A DNA stretch of 64,000 nt from Escherichia coli (GTDB lineage Bacteria; Pseudomonadota; Gammaproteobacteria; Enterobacterales; Enterobacteriaceae), in NCBI RefSeq assembly GCF_001677475.2, contig NZ_CP015229.1; one strand, written 5' to 3'. The notes beneath the pieces were generated by a model. It worked only from the letters and a program-made list of their open reading frames with translations. It was not told the origin of the DNA and searched no databases. Within the stretch, counting starts at the first letter, position 1; each line of letters begins with the position of its first letter. Positions 9,100-49,555 of the stretch are shown here, one piece after another. Both the position numbers and the translations under genes were made by a program.

Positions 9100-11342
<2,243 letters not shown>

Positions 11343-24810: not shown

Positions 24811-26352
<1,542 letters not shown>

Positions 26353-26420
26353 CCTTAAAGAACTGTGCTTTGCAGTGCTCACACAGATTGTCTGATGAAA
26401 ATGAGCAGTAAAACCTCTAC

Positions 26421-26497
<77 letters not shown>

Positions 26498-26539
26498 AAT
26501 TTGCACCGCAAATTTGAAGAGGTTTTAACTACATGTTAT

Positions 26540-26615
26540 GGGGCTATAGCTCAGCTGGGAGAGCGCCTGCTTTGCACGCAGGAGGTCTGCGGTTCGATCC
26601 CGCATAGCTCCACCA
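26540..26615 (+). tRNA. alaT: tRNA-Ala (UGC)
   Basis: ggggctatagctcagctgggagagcgcctgctttgcacgcagg...gctccacca, 76 nt. Confidence 0.97.
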
Positions 26616-26798
26616 TCTCTGTAGTGATTAAATAAAAAATACTTCAGAGTGTACCTGCAAAGGTTCACTGCGAAGTTTTGCTCTTTAAAAATCTGGATCA
26701 AGCTGAAAATTGAAACACTGAACAACGAAAGTTGTTCGTGAGTCTCTCAAATTTTCGCAACACGATGATGAATCGAAAGAAACATCTTCGGGTTGTGA

Positions 26799-29701
<2,903 letters not shown>

Positions 29702-29798
29702 ACAACGCCGAAGCTGTTTTGGCGGATGAGAGAAGATTTTCAGCCTGATACAGATTAAATCGACAGGTCAGAACATGACGTGTTGATAAAACAGAATT

Positions 29799-29918
29799 TG
29801 CCTGGCGGCCGTAGCGCGGTGGTCCCACCTGACCCCATGCCGAACTCAGAAGTGAAACGCCGTAGCGCCGATGGTAGTGTGGGGTCTCCCCATGCGAGAG
29901 TAGGGAACTGCCAGGCAT
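29799..29918 (+). rRNA. rrfA: 5S ribosomal RNA
   Basis: tgcctggcggccgtagcgcggtgg...gggaactgccaggcat, 120 nt. Confidence 0.98.
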
Positions 29919-38866: not shown

Positions 38867-39013
38867 GATTCGCCTGAACATGCCCTTTTTTCGTAAGTAA
38901 GCAACATAAGCTGTCACGTTTTGTGATGGCTATTAGAAATTCCTATGCAACAACTGAAAAAAAATTACAAAAAGTGCTTTCTGAACTGAACAAAAAAGAG
39001 TAAAGTTAGTCGC

Positions 39014-39122
39014 GTAGGGTACAGAGGTAAGATGTTCTATCTTTCAGACCTTTTACTTCACGTAATCGGATTTGGCTGAATATTTTAGCCGCCCCAGTCA
39101 GTAATGACTGGGGCGTTTTTTA
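39014..39122 (+). ncRNA. spf: Spot 42 small RNA
   Basis: gtagggtacagaggtaagatgttctatctttcagacc...gccccagtcagtaatgactggggcgtttttt, 109 nt with its own terminator. Confidence 0.95.
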
Positions 39123-40150: not shown

Positions 40151-40393
40151 ATAGAGCGAGGACGCTAACAGGAACAATGACTCAGGATGAGGGTCAGGAG
40201 CGCCAGGAGGCGAAGACAGAGGATTGTCAGGAAGACAAACGTCCGGAGACGTAATTAAACGGAAATGGAATCAACACGGATTGTTCCGGCTAATGGAAAA
40301 ACAGGGTGTGTTGGCGGCCTGCAAGGATTGTAAGACCCGTTAAGGGTTATGAGTCAGGAAAAAAGGCGACAGAGTAATCTGTCGCCTTTTTTC
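40151..40393 (+). ncRNA. csrC: CsrC small RNA (CsrA-sequestering)
   Basis: Many GGA motifs (caggatgagggtcaggagcgccaggaggcgaag...); ends in gcgacagagtaatctgtcgcctttttt terminator. Confidence 0.9.
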
Positions 40394-40461
40394 TTTGCTT
40401 GCTTTCTGTTAGATTCCGCCGCAAATCTATACTGAATAAAACGGCTAAAAGACGAACCATT

Positions 40462-42944: not shown

Positions 42945-44354
42945 TCACTCCATCCCCAGCTCTTTTAACTTCCGCGTCAGAGTGTTACGCCCCCAGCCGA
43001 GTAGCCGCGCCGCTTCCTGTTTATGTCCTTGCGTATATCGCAACGCGGTCGTCAGTAACGTCCGCTCCAGCTCAGGCTGCGCTTCGGAAAGCAGATTTTG
43101 ATGACCGGAACGCAGCGCCCTGTCTGCCCACTGCGCTAACAGCGTCGCCCAACTGTCCGGTTGCATTTGCGAAGTACTCTCCGCAACCGTTGATTCAAAC
43201 AGTTCACCGGGCAAATCCTGAATCAACACTTCCTGCCCGGCGGCCATCACCGTTAGCCAGCGGCAGGTGTTTTCCAGCTGGCGCACGTTGCCTGGCCACG
43301 CCAGACGCGTCAGAGCAGCTTCGGTTTCCGGATGCAGCAACTTCGCTTCTACGCCCAGTTCACGCGCGGCAACCTGTAAAAAATGGCGCGCCAGACGGGG
43401 AATATCTTCCCGACGTTCGCGCAGCGGCGGCAGATGAACGCGGATAACGTTCAGGCGGTGGAACAGATCCTCACGGAACTTGCCTTCCTGCACCCGCTGT
43501 TCAAGATTCTGGTGAGTGGCAGCGATAATCCGCACATCTACTTTCACCGGCGCATAGCCGCCAACGCGATAAAACTGACCATCTGCCAGTACGCGCAGCA
43601 AACGCGTCTGCACATCCAGCGGCATATCGCCAATTTCATCGAGGAATAATGTACCGCCATCAGCCTGTTCAAAACGCCCCTGACGAATGGTATTCGCGCC
43701 GGTAAACGCGCCTTTCTCGTGGCCAAACAGTTCTGATTCGATCAAATCTTTTGGGATAGCTGCCATATTCAGCGCGATAAACGGCGCTTTGGCGCGCGGA
43801 CTGTGGCGATGCAGGGCATGAGCGACCAGTTCTTTACCGGTACCGGATTCGCCGTTAATCAGCACGCTAATAGAAGAACGCGAAAGCCGACCGATAATAC
43901 GGAACACGTCCTGCATGGCTGGCGCTTCGCCGATGATATCGGTCGTTGGGCCGTTAAGCTGAACATTACGCGGCTGCTGCTGTTCCTGATAATGGCTGAT
44001 GGCGCGCTCAACCAGCGCCACGGCTTCGTCGATATCAAACGGTTTGGGCAGATAATCAAACGCCCCTTGTTGATAGGCGCTGACGGCAGCATCCAGATCG
44101 GAATGTGCGGTCATGATGATGACCGGAAGCATCGGATGGCGCTGTTTAATCTGCTTGAGCAGTGCCAGTCCGTCCATTCCCGGCATACGGATATCTGAAA
44201 GCAGCACATCCGGCGTTTTGCTCGCCAGCGCCTCCAGTACCTCCGCGCCGTTCTCAAATGTCGTACAGGTTAAACCCGCTCCAGCGAGCGCACGTTCAAG
44301 CACCCAACGGATGGAACTATCGTCATCGACTACCCAGACTATCCCTCGTTGCAT
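42945..44354 (-). CDS. glnG: Nitrogen regulation response regulator NtrC
   Basis: Start at [23 protein letters not shown] (469 aa); sigma54-activator AAA+ domain (GESGTGKE). Confidence 0.97.
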
Positions 44355-44365
44355 AAACGTCACCT

Positions 44366-45415
44366 TTATTTCCTGATAGGCAGGTAAACCGAGAACTCGG
44401 TATGCCCTGGCCAACTGGTAAATTCAATTTTGCCTGAATGCTGATCAATCAAATTACGAGCGATGGATAAGCCAAGCCCGGTGCCACCTTCGCGGCCGCT
44501 GACCATCGGGTAAAACAGCGTATCCTGCAAATGAGGCGGAATGCCCGGCCCGTTATCTTCCACATCAATCCGCGCCGCCAGCCGGTAGCGCTCGCCGTGT
44601 AAGGTCAGTTGAAACGCGGTGCGGGTACGCAGAATGATTTCACCGCCTTCCGGCCCCAGCGCCTGTAGCGCATTGCGCACAATATTCAGGAGCACTTGCT
44701 CAATTTGATCCGGGTCGTGCGCCAGTTCCGGCAGGCTGGGGTCGTAATCACGAATCAACCGCACGTTGTCCGGCAGTTCCATCGACACCAGCGTCACCAC
44801 ACGTTCAGCCACTTTATGAATACTTTCGGTAACGCGCGTACCGGGCAGCTGCGGCCCCAACAGACGGTCGACCAGATTTCGCAGCCGGTCCGCCTGTTCG
44901 ATAATCACTTTGGTATATTCGAGTAGTGACGGGTCAGGTAATGCTTTGCTGAGTAGCTGCGCCGCGCCCCGTAAACCGCCAAGCGGATTTTTAATCTCAT
45001 GTGCCAGGCCGCGCACTAAATCACGGGCAGCAACCTGCTGGGCGTGCTGTAGCTGTTCCTGACTTAAGCGGCGCTGGTTATCCATCGGTGCCATCTCCAG
45101 CAGGATCATGCCGTCCGGCATACGCTGGGCCGTCACAGAAAGGATATGCGAACGCCCGTCGATGACCAGCGTCACTTCGTTATCGGTAAAACCTTGCCCC
45201 GCCTCCAGACTTTCTTGCATCAGCTCGATATTTAATGAGAAGTAGCTCAACAGTTCCGGTAACGGCGTACCAAACAATTTGCGGGAGCTTTGGGCGAGCA
45301 GTTGTTGCGCGGCGGGGTTGGCGTAATGGATCGCCAGGTTGTCATCGATTAACAAAATACTGTTAATCAGCGAGTTGAGGATCTGCCCAGCATCGGGCTG
45401 CGTGCCTGTTGCCAT
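44366..45415 (-). CDS. glnL: Nitrogen regulation sensor kinase NtrB
   Basis: 349 aa; histidine kinase H box (HEIKNPL). Confidence 0.97.
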
Positions 45416-45436
45416 AAAGCAGTCTCCTGAACAGGT

Positions 45437-45453
45437 TGCACCATTTTAGTGCA
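45437..45453. promoter_or_regulatory. NtrC-binding palindrome at the glnL promoter
   Basis: tgcaccattttagtgca. Confidence 0.8.
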
Positions 45454-45503
45454 TTATAGCTTTTTACGGATAAAAAGCGCGAAGCATCAGAGAATTGACG
45501 GAG

Positions 45504-45733
45504 AAAAAAGCCCATGCAGAGATGGGCTGAAATTTCCACGGCAACTAAAAACCAGTCCCATCAGGCTATTTTATTTGCCATTTTGAACCTGGGCAGTGCT
45601 CGAACTCCTCACGTACCAGTGTACGCTCCGGGTTCTGCGCGCTGTCCGTGTTCAAACTGGCTGCAACAATTACGCCAGATGGGCCTGGTTTGAACCTCCG
45701 GCGTTGTTGCGCCGGGTAGTACAACTTCAACTA
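45504..45733 (-). ncRNA. glnA 3' UTR, candidate GlnZ-type 3'-derived sRNA
   Basis: Minus-strand terminator (agcccatctctgcatgggct plus T run, plus coordinates 45504-45529) lies about 200 nt beyond the glnA stop. Confidence 0.5.
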
Positions 45734-47143
45734 TTAGACGCTGTAGTACAGCTCAAACTCTACCGGATGCGGAGTCATACGCACGCGGTCATCTTCTTCG
45801 CGACGCAGAGCGATGTACGCATCGATCGCTTCATCCGTGAACACGCCACCGGCTTTCAGGAACTCGCGATCCAGATCCAGTTCGTTCAGTGCTTCTTCCA
45901 GAGAGCCTGCAACCTGTGGGATCTCTTTCGCTTCTTCTGGCGGCAGGTCATACAGGTTTTTGTCCATGGCTTCGCCCGGATGGATCTTGTTCTTGATACC
46001 ATCAAGACCGGCCATCAGCAGGGCAGCAAAGCACAGGTACGGGTTAGCCGCCGGGTCCGGGAAACGTACTTCGATACGACGTGCTTTCGGAGAAGAAACC
46101 ACCGGAATACGGATAGACGCAGAACGGTTACGCGCAGAGTAAGCCAGCATTACCGGTGCTTCGTAGCCCGGGACCAGACGCTTGTAAGAGTTGGTGGTCG
46201 GGTTTGCCAGGGCGTTAATCGCTTTAGCGTGTTTGATTACGCCGCCAATGTAGTACAGCGCCTGCTCAGACAGACCTGCGTATTTATCGCCCGCGAACAG
46301 GTTAACGCCGTTTTTAGACAGTGACATGTGGCAGTGCATACCGGAGCCGTTATCACCGAACATCGGTTTTGGCATAAAGGTCGCAGTTTTACCGAAGCGG
46401 TGCGCTACGTTGTGCACAACATATTTGTAGATCTGAATTTCGTCAGCTTTTTTGGTCATGGTATTGAAGCGGGTAGCCACTTCGTTCTGACCAGCAGTCG
46501 CTACTTCGTGGTGATGGGCTTCAACCACCAGACCCATCTGTTCCATCACCAGACACATTTCAGAACGAATATCCTGAGCAGAGTCTACCGGTGGAACCGG
46601 GAAGTAACCGCCTTTCACTGCCGGACGGTGACCTTTGTTACCACCTTCGTATTGGGTGGAGGAGTTCCATGCGCCTTCGATATCGTCGATAGCAACGTGG
46701 GAACCGGAGATAGATGATCCGAAACGGATGTCATCGAACAGGAAGAATTCAGGTTCTGGCCCGAACAGTACGGTGTCGGCAATGCCAGTGGAACGCAGGT
46801 AATCTTCGGCGCGCTTCGCAATAGAGCGCGGGTCACGGTCATAGCCTTGCAGGGTGCCAGGTTCAAGGATGTCGCAACGGATAATCAGGGTAGAGTCGGC
46901 GAAGAACGGGTCAATCACTGCGGTGGATGCGTCTGGCATCAGCACCATGTCGGATTCGTTAATGCCTTTCCAGCCGCCAATCGAGGAGCCGTCAAACATT
47001 TTGCCTTCTTCGAAGAATTCAGCATTCACCTGATGAGCAGGGATAGTGACGTGCTGTTCTTTACCTTTGGTATCGGTGAAGCGCAAATCAACAAACTTCA
47101 CTTCGTGCTCGTTCAGCATCGTCAGTACGTGTTCAGCGGACAT
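45734..47143 (-). CDS. glnA: Glutamine synthetase
   Basis: 469 aa; [31 protein letters not shown]. Confidence 0.98.
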
Positions 47144-47226
47144 ACTTTAACTCTCCTGGATTGGTCATTGTCGTCGTGGTAACGAAATCTGCAATTATTT
47201 TGGCCGTGTCGCCGTAAAAAAGATAA

Positions 47227-47243
47227 AGCGAAAACTGTGCCAA
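47227..47243 (-). promoter_or_regulatory. sigma54 promoter glnAp2
   Basis: Minus-strand TTGGCACAGTTTTCGCT with -24 GG and -12 GC, about 85 nt upstream of the glnA ATG. Confidence 0.85.
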
Positions 47244-47296
47244 CTTTTAAATTGCCCCTAAAAGGCGTTATCATGCTTAACATCGTGCAAAAGGGC

Positions 47297-47364
47297 TGCA
47301 CCATGATGTGAATGTTGCACCAATATAGTGCTTCAATGGAAACATTAAGCACCATATTGGTGCA
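47297..47364. promoter_or_regulatory. NtrC enhancer sites upstream of glnAp2
   Basis: tgcaccatgatgtg (47297-47310), tgcaccaatatagtgct (47316-47332) and gcaccatattggtgca (47349-47364), roughly 110 and 140 bp from the promoter. Confidence 0.8.
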
Positions 47365-47515
47365 ATGACCTTTGGATAACCCTTTTTATGCTCCGTGAAA
47401 GCGATCACAAAGGGACTCTGCAATACTTGTTTGCGGAGGATGTTTGTGATCCTGTTTTGTAGTGCGATTAATCCGTGTACAATAACGCGCTATTTCTAAT
47501 GCCTGAGGCAAAGTT

Positions 47516-49339
47516 GTGATCGAAAAATTGCGTAATATCGCCATCATCGCGCACGTAGACCATGGTAAAACCACCCTGGTAGACAAGCTGCTCCAACAAT
47601 CCGGTACGTTCGACTCTCGTGCCGAAACCCAAGAGCGCGTGATGGACTCCAACGATTTGGAGAAAGAGCGTGGGATTACCATCCTCGCGAAAAACACCGC
47701 TATCAAATGGAATGATTACCGTATCAACATCGTTGATACCCCGGGGCACGCCGACTTCGGTGGTGAAGTTGAACGTGTAATGTCCATGGTAGACTCAGTG
47801 CTGCTGGTGGTTGACGCATTTGACGGCCCGATGCCGCAAACGCGCTTCGTAACCAAAAAAGCGTTTGCTTACGGCCTGAAGCCGATTGTTGTTATCAACA
47901 AAGTTGACCGCCCTGGCGCGCGTCCTGACTGGGTTGTGGATCAGGTATTCGATCTGTTCGTTAACCTCGACGCGACCGACGAGCAGCTGGACTTCCCGAT
48001 CGTTTACGCTTCTGCGCTGAACGGTATCGCGGGTCTGGACCACGAAGATATGGCGGAAGACATGACTCCGCTGTATCAGGCGATTGTTGACCACGTTCCT
48101 GCGCCGGACGTTGACCTTGACGGTCCGTTCCAGATGCAGATTTCTCAGCTCGATTACAACAGCTATGTTGGCGTTATCGGCATTGGCCGCATCAAGCGCG
48201 GTAAAGTGAAGCCGAACCAGCAGGTTACTATCATCGATAGCGAAGGCAAAACCCGCAACGCGAAAGTCGGTAAAGTGCTGGGCCACCTCGGTCTGGAACG
48301 TATCGAAACTGATCTGGCGGAAGCTGGCGATATCGTTGCGATCACGGGCCTTGGCGAACTGAACATTTCTGACACCGTTTGCGACACGCAAAACGTTGAA
48401 GCGCTGCCGGCACTCTCCGTTGATGAGCCGACCGTTTCTATGTTCTTCTGCGTTAACACCTCACCGTTCTGCGGTAAAGAAGGTAAGTTCGTAACGTCTC
48501 GTCAGATCCTGGATCGTCTGAACAAAGAACTGGTACACAACGTTGCGCTGCGCGTAGAAGAAACCGAAGACGCCGATGCGTTCCGCGTTTCTGGTCGTGG
48601 CGAACTGCACCTGTCTGTTCTGATCGAAAACATGCGTCGTGAAGGTTTCGAACTGGCGGTATCCCGTCCGAAAGTTATCTTCCGTGAAATCGACGGTCGT
48701 AAACAAGAGCCGTATGAAAACGTGACTCTGGACGTTGAAGAACAGCATCAGGGTTCTGTAATGCAGGCGCTGGGCGAACGTAAAGGCGACCTGAAAAACA
48801 TGAATCCAGACGGTAAAGGCCGCGTACGTCTCGACTACGTGATCCCAAGCCGTGGTCTGATTGGCTTCCGTTCTGAGTTCATGACCATGACTTCCGGTAC
48901 TGGTCTGCTGTACTCCACCTTCAGCCACTACGACGACGTACGTCCGGGTGAAGTGGGTCAGCGTCAGAACGGCGTACTGATCTCTAACGGTCAGGGTAAA
49001 GCGGTCGCGTTCGCGCTGTTCGGTCTGCAGGATCGCGGTAAGCTGTTCCTCGGTCACGGTGCAGAAGTTTACGAAGGTCAGATTATCGGTATTCATAGCC
49101 GCTCTAACGACCTGACTGTAAACTGCCTGACCGGTAAGAAACTGACCAACATGCGTGCTTCCGGTACTGACGAAGCCGTTGTTCTGGTTCCGCCTATCCG
49201 CATGACTCTGGAACAAGCTCTGGAGTTCATCGATGATGACGAACTGGTAGAAGTGACTCCGACCTCTATCCGTATTCGTAAACGTCACCTGACGGAAAAT
49301 GATCGTCGTCGCGCTAACCGCGCACCGAAAGACGATTAA
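47516..49339 (+). CDS. typA: Ribosome-associated translational GTPase TypA/BipA
   Basis: GTG start; [17 protein letters not shown]1 motif; 607 aa. Confidence 0.97.
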
Positions 49340-49356
49340 TTTCGTTTTTTAGCCAT

Positions 49357-49389
49357 AAAAAACCTGCCAGCGATGGCAGGTTTTTTTTT
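49357..49389 (+). terminator. Intrinsic terminator after typA
   Basis: cctgccagcgatggcagg hairpin followed by nine T. Confidence 0.85.
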
Positions 49390-49555
49390 ACCTGTCGTGA
49401 GCGCACACCAATGCGAGTATCTCCCTTATAAGTCTGTGATTACGTCAATAGAGAGCTTTGTCACAATTATCTGCAAAGTCATACGCCGTTAATTGCTTTC
49501 TTTTTTGGCGTAAGCGTAAGATGCTTCATCTGGTTTAAACCAAAAGGATTAAACA

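What the first reader, a model, noticed from the sequence alone, without database searches (positions are those of the whole stretch)
45504..45733. Long glnA 3' UTR ending in a strong terminator, consistent with a 3'-derived sRNA
The glnA stop is at 45734 but the only convincing minus-strand terminator (agcccatctctgcatgggct plus T run) is about 200 nt downstream, just before the glnL promoter region with its NtrC palindrome. A 3' UTR-derived sRNA (GlnZ) has been described for glnA in enterobacteria; this interval has the expected architecture.
Basis: partly seen in the sequence, partly recalled or inferred. Interest (0 to 1): 0.35.

Follow-up and report, generated by a model that had tools for sequence, protein, structure and literature searches.

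The report
Known glnA 3'UTR small RNA GlnZ

Summary
glnA (45734..47143, minus strand) ends with TAA at 45736..45734. The only good minus-strand terminator lies at 45528..45509, with a T run to 45504, which gives a 230-nt 3'UTR. The glnL promoter and its NtrC palindrome follow.

Window 45734..45491 matches the published GlnZ-O111 expression insert at 244 of 244 bases (Miyakoshi et al., eLife 2022). That paper detected this RNA by northern blot under nitrogen limitation. The conserved seed UUGCCGUGGAAA (45544..45533) lies directly before the terminator.

Among 5,426 complete E. coli genomes, 992 carry this type, about 2,859 the 85-nt O157 type and 1,571 the 197-nt K-12 type.

One addition: the extra sequence relative to the O157 type (148 nt in place of GA) contains a 143-nt imperfect palindrome (45691..45549). 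It belongs to a dispersed E. coli repeat family with a median of 5 copies per genome. The family resembles ERIC but fails an ERIC profile test. True ERIC elements occupy the same position in Salmonella GlnZ1 and in about 17 other enterobacterial species. The two GlnZ papers I read do not mention this.

Interest is low because the finding is already known.

The parts
45734..47143 (-). glnA coding sequence (glutamine synthetase), the parental mRNA of the sRNA; stop TAA at 45736..45734
   Evidence: ORF list; NCBIfam NF007006 at 1048.6 bits over residues 1-469; annotated glnA in matching RefSeq genomes
45504..45733 (-). Full-length glnA 3'UTR = GlnZ, O111 type, 230 nt
   Evidence: Identical to the published pPL-GlnZO111 insert; length matches the published 230 nt; 100% identical in 992 of 5,426 complete E. 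coli genomes
45698..45716 (-). Small 5' hairpin CCCGGCG-CAACAA-CGCCGG (UTR nt 18-36), shared with the 85-nt O157-type UTR
   Evidence: Alignment A1; minimum-free-energy folds
45549..45691 (-). 143-nt imperfect palindromic repeat element (UTR nt 43-185). Terminal inverted repeats are AAACCAGGCCCATC / GATGGGACTGGTTT, flanked by TTC and TTA. It is absent from the O157 and K-12 types and forms one long hairpin in the RNA
   Evidence: Every E. coli genome holds a median of 5 (up to 8) related copies at 84-89% identity. Six other loci were fetched and aligned. Fold. No significant match to an ERIC profile
45545..45551 (-). U-rich linker UUUUUAG between the repeat hairpin and the seed. It contains RNase E-like motifs (GG|UUU, GU|UUU), and cleavage there would give a product of about 47-48 nt
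   Evidence: Motif scan. By analogy, the cloning primer for the ~50-nt Salmonella GlnZ2 starts at the equivalent place. Cleavage here is inferred
45533..45544 (-). Seed UUGCCGUGGAAA (UTR nt 190-201)
   Evidence: Published seed; located; found with at most one mismatch downstream of glnA in about 95 of 120 species loci
45504..45528 (-). Rho-independent terminator: stem AGCCCAU/AUGGGCU, loop CUCUGC, then a U tract. It is the 3' end of GlnZ and of the monocistronic glnA mRNA, and the expected Hfq-binding module
   Evidence: Terminator scan; folds; adjacent to the seed in 88 of 91 distinct enterobacterial sequences
45437..45458 (-). glnL promoter region: TATAAT at 45458..45453 overlapping the palindrome TGCACTAAAATGGTGCA at 45453..45437. 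This bounds the sRNA locus and is not part of it
   Evidence: Read directly from the sequence. Identical in all three UTR types. Calling it an NtrC operator rests on my own knowledge of the glnALG operon
44366..45415 (-). glnL (NtrB / NR-II), the downstream gene
   Evidence: NCBIfam NF008293 at 700.8 bits
47227..47242 (-). Sigma-54-type promoter TGGCAC-N5-TCGCT (glnAp2). NtrC-like palindromes lie upstream, e.g. TGCACCAATATGGTGCT at 47364..47348. This is the nitrogen-regulated source of the transcript that yields GlnZ
   Evidence: Read directly from the sequence. The assignment rests on established knowledge of glnAp2. NtrC dependence of GlnZ is reported in the abstract of Walling et al.

Best explanation
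The interval is the O111-type allele of GlnZ, an Hfq-dependent small RNA cut out of the 3'UTR of the glnA mRNA. Under nitrogen limitation NtrC activates the sigma-54 promoter glnAp2. Transcription of glnA stops at the terminator at 45528..45504. RNase E then cuts the mRNA near the stop codon and probably again in the U-rich linker. This releases a ~230-nt RNA and shorter forms, all of which keep the seed UUGCCGUGGAAA and the terminator hairpin. The seed pairs with the 5'UTRs of sucA, glnP and, in E. coli, aceE, and lowers their expression. That shifts 2-oxoglutarate towards glutamine and glutamate synthesis. [quoted passage not shown] The functional module is therefore the last ~47 nt, and the rest is an insertion. 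Shown here: the anatomy, identity to the published sequence, conservation of the seed-terminator module, and the repeat nature of the insert. Taken from the literature: expression, nitrogen induction, Hfq and RNase E dependence, and target repression. Target regulation was demonstrated mainly with the K-12, O157 and Salmonella forms. Inferred: the position of the second RNase E cut and any role of the repeat hairpin.
For: - The window is 244/244 identical to the published GlnZ-O111 insert.
- The UTR is 230 nt, as published.
- The seed is present at UTR nt 190-201.
- The terminator carries six U.
- glnA, glnL and glnG are identified at full length, and a sigma-54 promoter with NtrC-like sites lies upstream of glnA.
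- No sigma-70-like promoter is found on the minus strand inside or at the end of glnA, which fits processing rather than separate transcription.
- The eLife paper reports a northern blot of an O111 strain. It showed RNAs the size of the 3'UTR, plus processed species, induced on glutamine, and a K-12 strain carrying glnZ-O111 expressed the heterologous RNA.
- RNase E release is required for sucA repression.
- The seed-terminator module is nearly invariant in 88 of 91 distinct sequences from Enterobacterales.
- A complementary site UAUCCACGGCGA lies at -45..-34 of E. coli sucA, with a duplex energy of -21.3 kcal/mol.
- The predicted probability that the seed is unpaired rises from 0.29 in the 230-nt form to 0.81 in a 47-nt form.
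Against: - No expression data can be produced here.
- In the text I read, target repression by the O111 form specifically is not described, although an expression plasmid for it exists.
- The sucA duplex energy is not unusual, since 56 of 500 shuffled seeds bind as well. Complementarity alone proves little.
- In the predicted full-length fold the seed is largely paired with the first 20 nt of the UTR, so the 230-nt form might be less active than the short one.
- No Rfam 15 family matches the interval, so there is no independent curated model.
Confidence: 0.95

Rival explanations
1. The interval is only a spacer: a repeat element that landed between glnA and glnL, plus an operon-internal terminator that limits read-through into glnLG. 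No trans-acting RNA function is involved.
For: About 62% of the UTR (143 of 230 nt) is a dispersed repeat also found in unrelated intergenic regions. Swapping UTR types did not change GlnA or NtrC levels. The terminator does stabilise glnA mRNA.
Against: The 12-nt seed and the adjacent terminator are conserved across about 90 species, while everything upstream of them varies freely. Neutral spacer would not behave like this. Published compensatory mutations show that the seed pairs with sucA, glnP and aceE.
Confidence: 0.03
2. The RNA is an independent gene with its own promoter inside the end of glnA or inside the repeat, rather than a processing product of the glnA mRNA.
For: Some 3'UTR sRNAs are made this way. 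Repeat elements can carry promoter-like sequences.
Against: No sigma-70-like promoter site lies on the minus strand in 44300..47600. Published work shows that GlnZ is processed from glnA mRNA by RNase E and that NtrC controls it through the glnA promoter.
Confidence: 0.02
3. The repeat hairpin is not passive. It changes GlnZ biogenesis or stability, as ERIC elements do for Yersinia mRNAs, so the O111 allele differs in function from the O157 and K-12 alleles.
For: - The hairpin ends 4 nt before an RNase E-like motif and 7 nt before the seed.
- ERIC elements lie at the same place and in the same orientation in Salmonella GlnZ1 and in about 17 other species.
- The GlnZ2 cloning primer, taken here as marking the Salmonella GlnZ2 5' end, starts at the 3' boundary of the ERIC element.
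- A review of the Yersinia work describes orientation-dependent, RNase E-linked effects of ERIC on transcripts.
- The seed is predicted to be occluded in the full-length form only.
Against: All tested GlnZ classes repress the same targets. GlnA and NtrC levels are unchanged in K-12 carrying the O111 UTR. Insertion into an AT-rich TTA site could be the whole explanation.
Confidence: 0.2

Closest known systems
GlnZ, O111 type (Miyakoshi et al., eLife 2022, PMC9731577)
   Same: Identical sequence (244/244), the same 230-nt length, the same seed and terminator, and the same genomic context glnA-GlnZ-glnLG.
   Different: Nothing differs in the sequence. The paper describes the type as the O157 type plus a 98-nt insertion flanked by AGGUUCAAA repeats. 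My alignment shows 148 nt replacing GA (230 - 85 = 145) and shows the insert to be a member of a dispersed repeat family.
GlnZ, O157 type (also called EsrF in EHEC), 85 nt, Class I of Walling et al.
   Same: The first 36 nt, the seed, the terminator and all flanking DNA are the same.
   Different: It lacks the 143-nt repeat. It has GGAAACUUUC where the window has GGAAAUUUC. It is present in about 2,859 of 5,426 genomes, against 992 for the O111 type.
GlnZ, K-12 type, 197 nt, Class III of Walling et al.
   Same: Same seed and same terminator.
   Different: The seed lies 10 nt after the stop codon, and a REP sequence sits between seed and terminator instead of a repeat upstream of the seed. It is present in 1,571 genomes.
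Salmonella enterica GlnZ1/GlnZ2, 185 nt, Class II
   Same: Same architecture: stop codon, long palindromic element, U-rich linker, seed, terminator. [quoted passage not shown]
   Different: The element is a canonical ERIC (115.7 bits against an ERIC profile). It is not the E. coli family found here, and neither profile matches the other family significantly. There is a G instead of U next to the seed.
ERIC / IRU elements (127-bp enterobacterial MITE-like repeats)
   Same: An imperfect palindrome of similar size, intergenic and co-transcribed. The ends are flanked by TA-containing short duplications. There is loose similarity in the central ~45 nt.
   Different: The terminal inverted repeats differ. 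The ERIC profile gives at most 4.7 bits on family members, against 71.8 bits for a true E. coli ERIC.

Membership tests
GlnZ (glnA 3'UTR-derived Hfq-dependent sRNA) | [quoted passage not shown] | tested here: met
GlnZ (glnA 3'UTR-derived Hfq-dependent sRNA) | Conserved seed 5'-UUGCCGUGGAAA-3' | tested here: met
   Exact match at 45544..45533
GlnZ (glnA 3'UTR-derived Hfq-dependent sRNA) | Rho-independent terminator with a U tract at the 3' end | tested here: met
GlnZ (glnA 3'UTR-derived Hfq-dependent sRNA) | Sequence identity to an experimentally characterised GlnZ | tested here: met
   244/244 identical to the published GlnZ-O111 insert
GlnZ (glnA 3'UTR-derived Hfq-dependent sRNA) | Accumulates under nitrogen limitation; released by RNase E; depends on Hfq | not testable with these tools
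   Published northern blot for an O111 strain and for K-12 carrying glnZ-O111. RNase E and Hfq dependence were shown for the K-12 and Salmonella forms
GlnZ (glnA 3'UTR-derived Hfq-dependent sRNA) | Seed complementary to the sucA 5'UTR | tested here: inconclusive
   A site at -45..-34 gives -21.3 kcal/mol, but 56 of 500 shuffles do as well. Published compensatory mutations carry the weight
ERIC / IRU repeat (for the 143-nt insert) | Matches the ERIC consensus or profile | tested here: not met
   The nhmmer ERIC profile gives no significant hit on 8 family members (best 4.7 bits, E = 0.03). The positive control scores 71.8 bits and Salmonella GlnZ1 scores 115.7 bits
ERIC / IRU repeat (for the 143-nt insert) | Imperfect palindrome of about 127 bp with terminal inverted repeats and TA-containing flanks | tested here: inconclusive
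   It is a 143-nt palindrome with inverted ends. Flanks such as TTA/TTA, TAA/TAA and CTA/CTA occur in several copies, but the glnA copy has TTC/TTA
'RSA' repeat of E. coli K-12 (150/151 bp, 6 copies in the old GenBank record) | Copy number and length as annotated for RSA | tested here: inconclusive
   K-12-like genomes show 6 places, and a table lists RSA at 150/151 bp with 6 copies. No RSA sequence or coordinates could be obtained, so the name rests on memory plus this numerical match

The most novel reading that the evidence does not exclude
The stretch just 5' of the GlnZ seed may be a recurrent landing site for palindromic mobile repeats, and the resulting hairpin may be used rather than merely tolerated. 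An E. coli-specific family sits there in the O111 type. Canonical ERIC sits there in Salmonella and in about 17 other species. All are in one orientation and end a few bases before the seed. The hairpin could define the RNase E cut that liberates the ~47-50-nt active form, or it could mask the seed in the precursor. Neither GlnZ paper I could read mentions ERIC or any mobile-repeat origin for these insertions.
Probability: 0.2. Interest if true: 0.4.

Novelty: already known. Interest (0 to 1): 0.15.

Why it matters
GlnZ links nitrogen status to carbon flow. The same mRNA that makes glutamine synthetase releases an RNA that lowers 2-oxoglutarate dehydrogenase and glutamine uptake. This has been published since 2022, including for this exact allele, so the finding adds no new biology.

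What is modestly useful is the explanation of the allele's anatomy. The variable part of GlnZ in E. coli O111-type strains, in Salmonella and in many other enterobacteria consists of small mobile palindromic repeats of at least two families. They lie next to an almost invariant ~47-nt seed-terminator module. This is a clear natural example of how 3'UTR sRNAs tolerate, or perhaps exploit, insertions. It also gives a simple three-allele marker that splits E. coli genomes 18% / 53% / 29%.

Tried and rejected
- **Rfam.** No family matched the interval at the gathering thresholds. At E up to 10 only chance-level hits appeared (sX9, Ysr49 and others, all far below threshold). GlnZ has no match in Rfam 15.
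- **ERIC identity of the insert.** The central part resembles the ERIC core. I rejected the assignment because the profile gave no significant hit while the positive controls scored highly.
- **Naming the repeat 'RSA'.** Four literature searches and three papers gave no sequence or coordinates. One search was a wasted search. NC_000913.3 annotates nothing in the cysP-ucpA spacer. Sharples and Lloyd 1990 is not held.
- **The published '98-nt insertion flanked by AGGUUCAAA repeats'.** Both repeats exist (45697..45689 and 45590..45582). Deleting between them would leave 123 nt, not the 85-nt O157 type. The second repeat is an internal part of the family consensus. I regard the 9-nt repeat as incidental.
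- **Duplex energy with sucA as independent evidence.** It is not distinguishable from shuffled controls.
- **Covariation test on the terminator.** I did not run it, because the stem is essentially invariant across species and so would be uninformative.
- **The 54-codon TTG ORF at 45566..45730 inside the UTR.** I did not pursue it. It lies mostly within the repeat and is absent from the other two UTR types.

Full report
**Observation**

On the minus strand the ORF 45734..47143 is glnA (NCBIfam equivalog NF007006, 1048.6 bits over all 469 residues). Its stop codon TAA occupies 45736..45734. The next genes are glnL (44366..45415) and glnG.

The terminator scan finds AGCCCATCTCTGCATGGGCT followed by TTTTTTCTCC at 45528..45509. 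This is the only strong minus-strand site between glnA and glnL. The interval 45504..45733 is exactly 230 nt. About 50 nt further on lie TATAAT (45458..45453) and the palindrome TGCACTAAAATGGTGCA (45453..45437), followed by the glnL start at 45415. The UTR folds much better than shuffled sequence (-96.7 kcal/mol, z = -5.55).

**Identity**

The window is E. coli. The 361 bases around the UTR are 100% identical in many RefSeq genomes.

Two papers describe an sRNA, GlnZ, derived from the glnA 3'UTR. Miyakoshi et al. (eLife 2022) give three facts that matter here:
- The conserved seed is UUGCCGUGGAAA.
- E. coli has three UTR types: K-12 (197 nt), O157 (85 nt) and O111 (230 nt).
- Northern blots of an O111 strain showed RNAs the size of the 3'UTR, plus processed species, induced on glutamine as sole nitrogen source.

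The seed is present at 45544..45533, immediately before the terminator. Supplementary file 5 of that paper prints the insert of the GlnZ-O111 expression plasmid. The window is identical to it over all 244 genomic bases, 45734..45491. The finding is therefore the published O111-type GlnZ.

No Rfam 15 family matches the interval.

**Frequency**

Among 5,426 complete E. coli genomes:
- 992 carry the full O111-type UTR.
- 1,571 carry the K-12 type.
- 3,851 carry either the O157 or the O111 type, which leaves about 2,859 with the O157 type.
- Three genomes fit none of the types.

**What makes this UTR long**

Alignment with the O157 type shows the same first 36 nt and the same seed and terminator. 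In the window, 148 nt replace the dinucleotide GA, and one C is missing after the seed.

This extra segment is not unique DNA. Every E. coli genome holds a median of 5 and up to 8 related copies at 84-89% identity over about 120-126 nt. I fetched copies from six other spacers: cysP-ucpA, nfi-hemE, pheM-pheS, qseG-qseE, rlmL-ycbX and pyrH-frr.

Their alignment defines an imperfect palindrome with inverted ends, AGAGCCTGGTCCATCAGGC... and ...GCCTGATGGGACAGGCTCT. Short matching flanks (TTA/TTA, TAA/TAA, CTA/CTA) occur in several copies. In the window the element spans UTR nt 43-185 (45691..45549). Its ends are AAACCAGGCCCATC / GATGGGACTGGTTT and its flanks are TTC and TTA. In the RNA it forms one long hairpin.

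The eLife text describes a 98-nt insertion flanked by AGGUUCAAA repeats. Both repeats exist. However, 230 minus 85 is 145, not 107. The second repeat is also an internal part of the family consensus.

**Which repeat family**

The centre of the element loosely resembles the ERIC core. I built an ERIC profile from other species' glnA UTRs. It scores a true E. coli ERIC at 71.8 bits but reaches at most 4.7 bits on members of this family. The element is therefore not ERIC.

K-12-like genomes show six places. A published table lists an 'RSA' repeat of 150/151 bp with six copies in K-12. I suspect this is that family, but I could not obtain an RSA sequence to test it.

**Other species**

A scan of one genome per species with a degenerate pattern for the last 11 codons of glnA plus the stop codon returned 120 loci. 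The seed, with at most one mismatch, lies within 450 nt downstream of glnA in about 95 of them. In 88 of 91 distinct sequences the terminator follows the seed directly, and the whole ~47-nt module is nearly invariant. The distance from stop codon to seed ranges from 2 to more than 300 nt.

The ERIC profile hits 20 of the 120 loci, all in the same orientation:
- In 12 of them the hit ends 1-4 nt before the seed.
- The genera include Citrobacter, Enterobacter, Cedecea, Buttiauxella, Phytobacter, Pantoea and Erwinia.
- Pectobacterium, Rouxiella and C. amalonaticus have an ERIC followed by further sequence before the seed.
- One hit, in Serratia grimesii, lies downstream of the seed.

The Salmonella GlnZ1 sequence printed in the eLife supplement is also an ERIC followed by UUUUUGAG, the seed and the terminator (115.7 bits). 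The primer used to clone the ~50-nt GlnZ2 form starts at the ERIC 3' boundary.

The E. coli family profile hits only the E. coli locus among the 120. Neither GlnZ paper contains the words ERIC or MITE.

**Mechanism**

Upstream of glnA lie TGGCAC-N5-TCGCT (47242..47227) and NtrC-like palindromes. These are the known nitrogen-regulated sigma-54 promoter arrangement. No sigma-70-like promoter is found on the minus strand within or after glnA.

The literature shows four things:
- It is released from glnA mRNA by RNase E.
- It needs Hfq.
- It must be released in order to repress sucA.

Seed pairing with sucA, glnP and aceE was proven by compensatory mutations.

- In the E. coli sucA 5'UTR I find UAUCCACGGCGA at -45..-34, complementary to the seed (-21.3 kcal/mol). 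This energy is not unusual against shuffled seeds, since 56 of 500 do as well.
- Folding predicts that the seed is largely paired in the 230-nt form (mean probability unpaired 0.29) and free in a 47-nt form (0.81).
- RNase E-like motifs lie at UTR nt 182-184, in the U-rich linker after the repeat hairpin.

I infer that the short form is the main active species and is produced by a cut there, as in Salmonella. This was not tested.

**Verdict**

The feature is already known down to the exact sequence.

The only addition is that the extra length of this allele, like that of Salmonella GlnZ1 and many other homologues, is a small palindromic repeat element lying directly upstream of the conserved seed-terminator module. 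Whether that hairpin matters for processing is open. I put that at about 0.2.

Noticed in passing
window 47327..47434 (+): An Rfam ES222 sRNA match (133 bits, gathering score 62) lies on the strand opposite to glnA. It sits over the glnA upstream regulatory region with its NtrC-like palindromes, between glnA and the divergent gene starting at 47516.
   Followed up: no
window 45697..45689 and 45590..45582 (-): The eLife paper describes the O111 type as the O157 type plus a 98-nt insertion flanked by these AGGUUCAAA repeats. This does not account for the 145-nt length difference. The second repeat is an internal part of the dispersed repeat's right arm, and the first straddles the flank and the left inverted end.
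   Followed up: yes
L013, L016, L028, L043, L060, L069, L070, L077, L078, L090, L094, L102 (downstream of glnA); Salmonella GlnZ1 sequence from the eLife supplement: [quoted passage not shown] All share one orientation and end 1-4 nt before the seed. The Salmonella 'Class II' GlnZ1 is an ERIC plus the seed-terminator module.
   Followed up: partly
L008 401..526 and L010 401..525: In some E. coli strains a copy of the same repeat family sits between the pheM attenuator and pheS, inside the 5' leader of the pheST operon.
   Followed up: no
L012 (NZ_AP023206.1, 404-kb record labelled plasmid pMTY18781-1_lncX3): This record carries the housekeeping genes pyrH and frr with a copy of the repeat between them. 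That is unusual for a plasmid and may reflect a chromosomal segment or an assembly problem.
   Followed up: no
L017 (E. albertii), L024 (Citrobacter sp. FP75), L131 (S. enterica subsp. arizonae): These three have the K-12-like arrangement: the seed lies within 10 nt of the stop codon and is followed by GCCTG..CAGGC and further sequence instead of the usual terminator. The 'Class III' layout is therefore not confined to E. coli K-12 relatives.
   Followed up: no
window 9454..9705, 39004..39122, 40151..40404, 49324..49392, 24811..29916: Other Rfam matches in the window are Erse, Spot 42, CsrC, STnc370 (barely above threshold at 55 against 54 bits) and a complete rRNA operon with two tRNAs and StyR-44.
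   Followed up: no
window 47242..47227 (-): The sigma-54 promoter reads TGGCACAGTTTTCGCT here. From memory the K-12 glnAp2 sequence is TGGCACAGATTTCGCT, a one-base difference in the spacer. I did not check this against a K-12 record.
   Followed up: no
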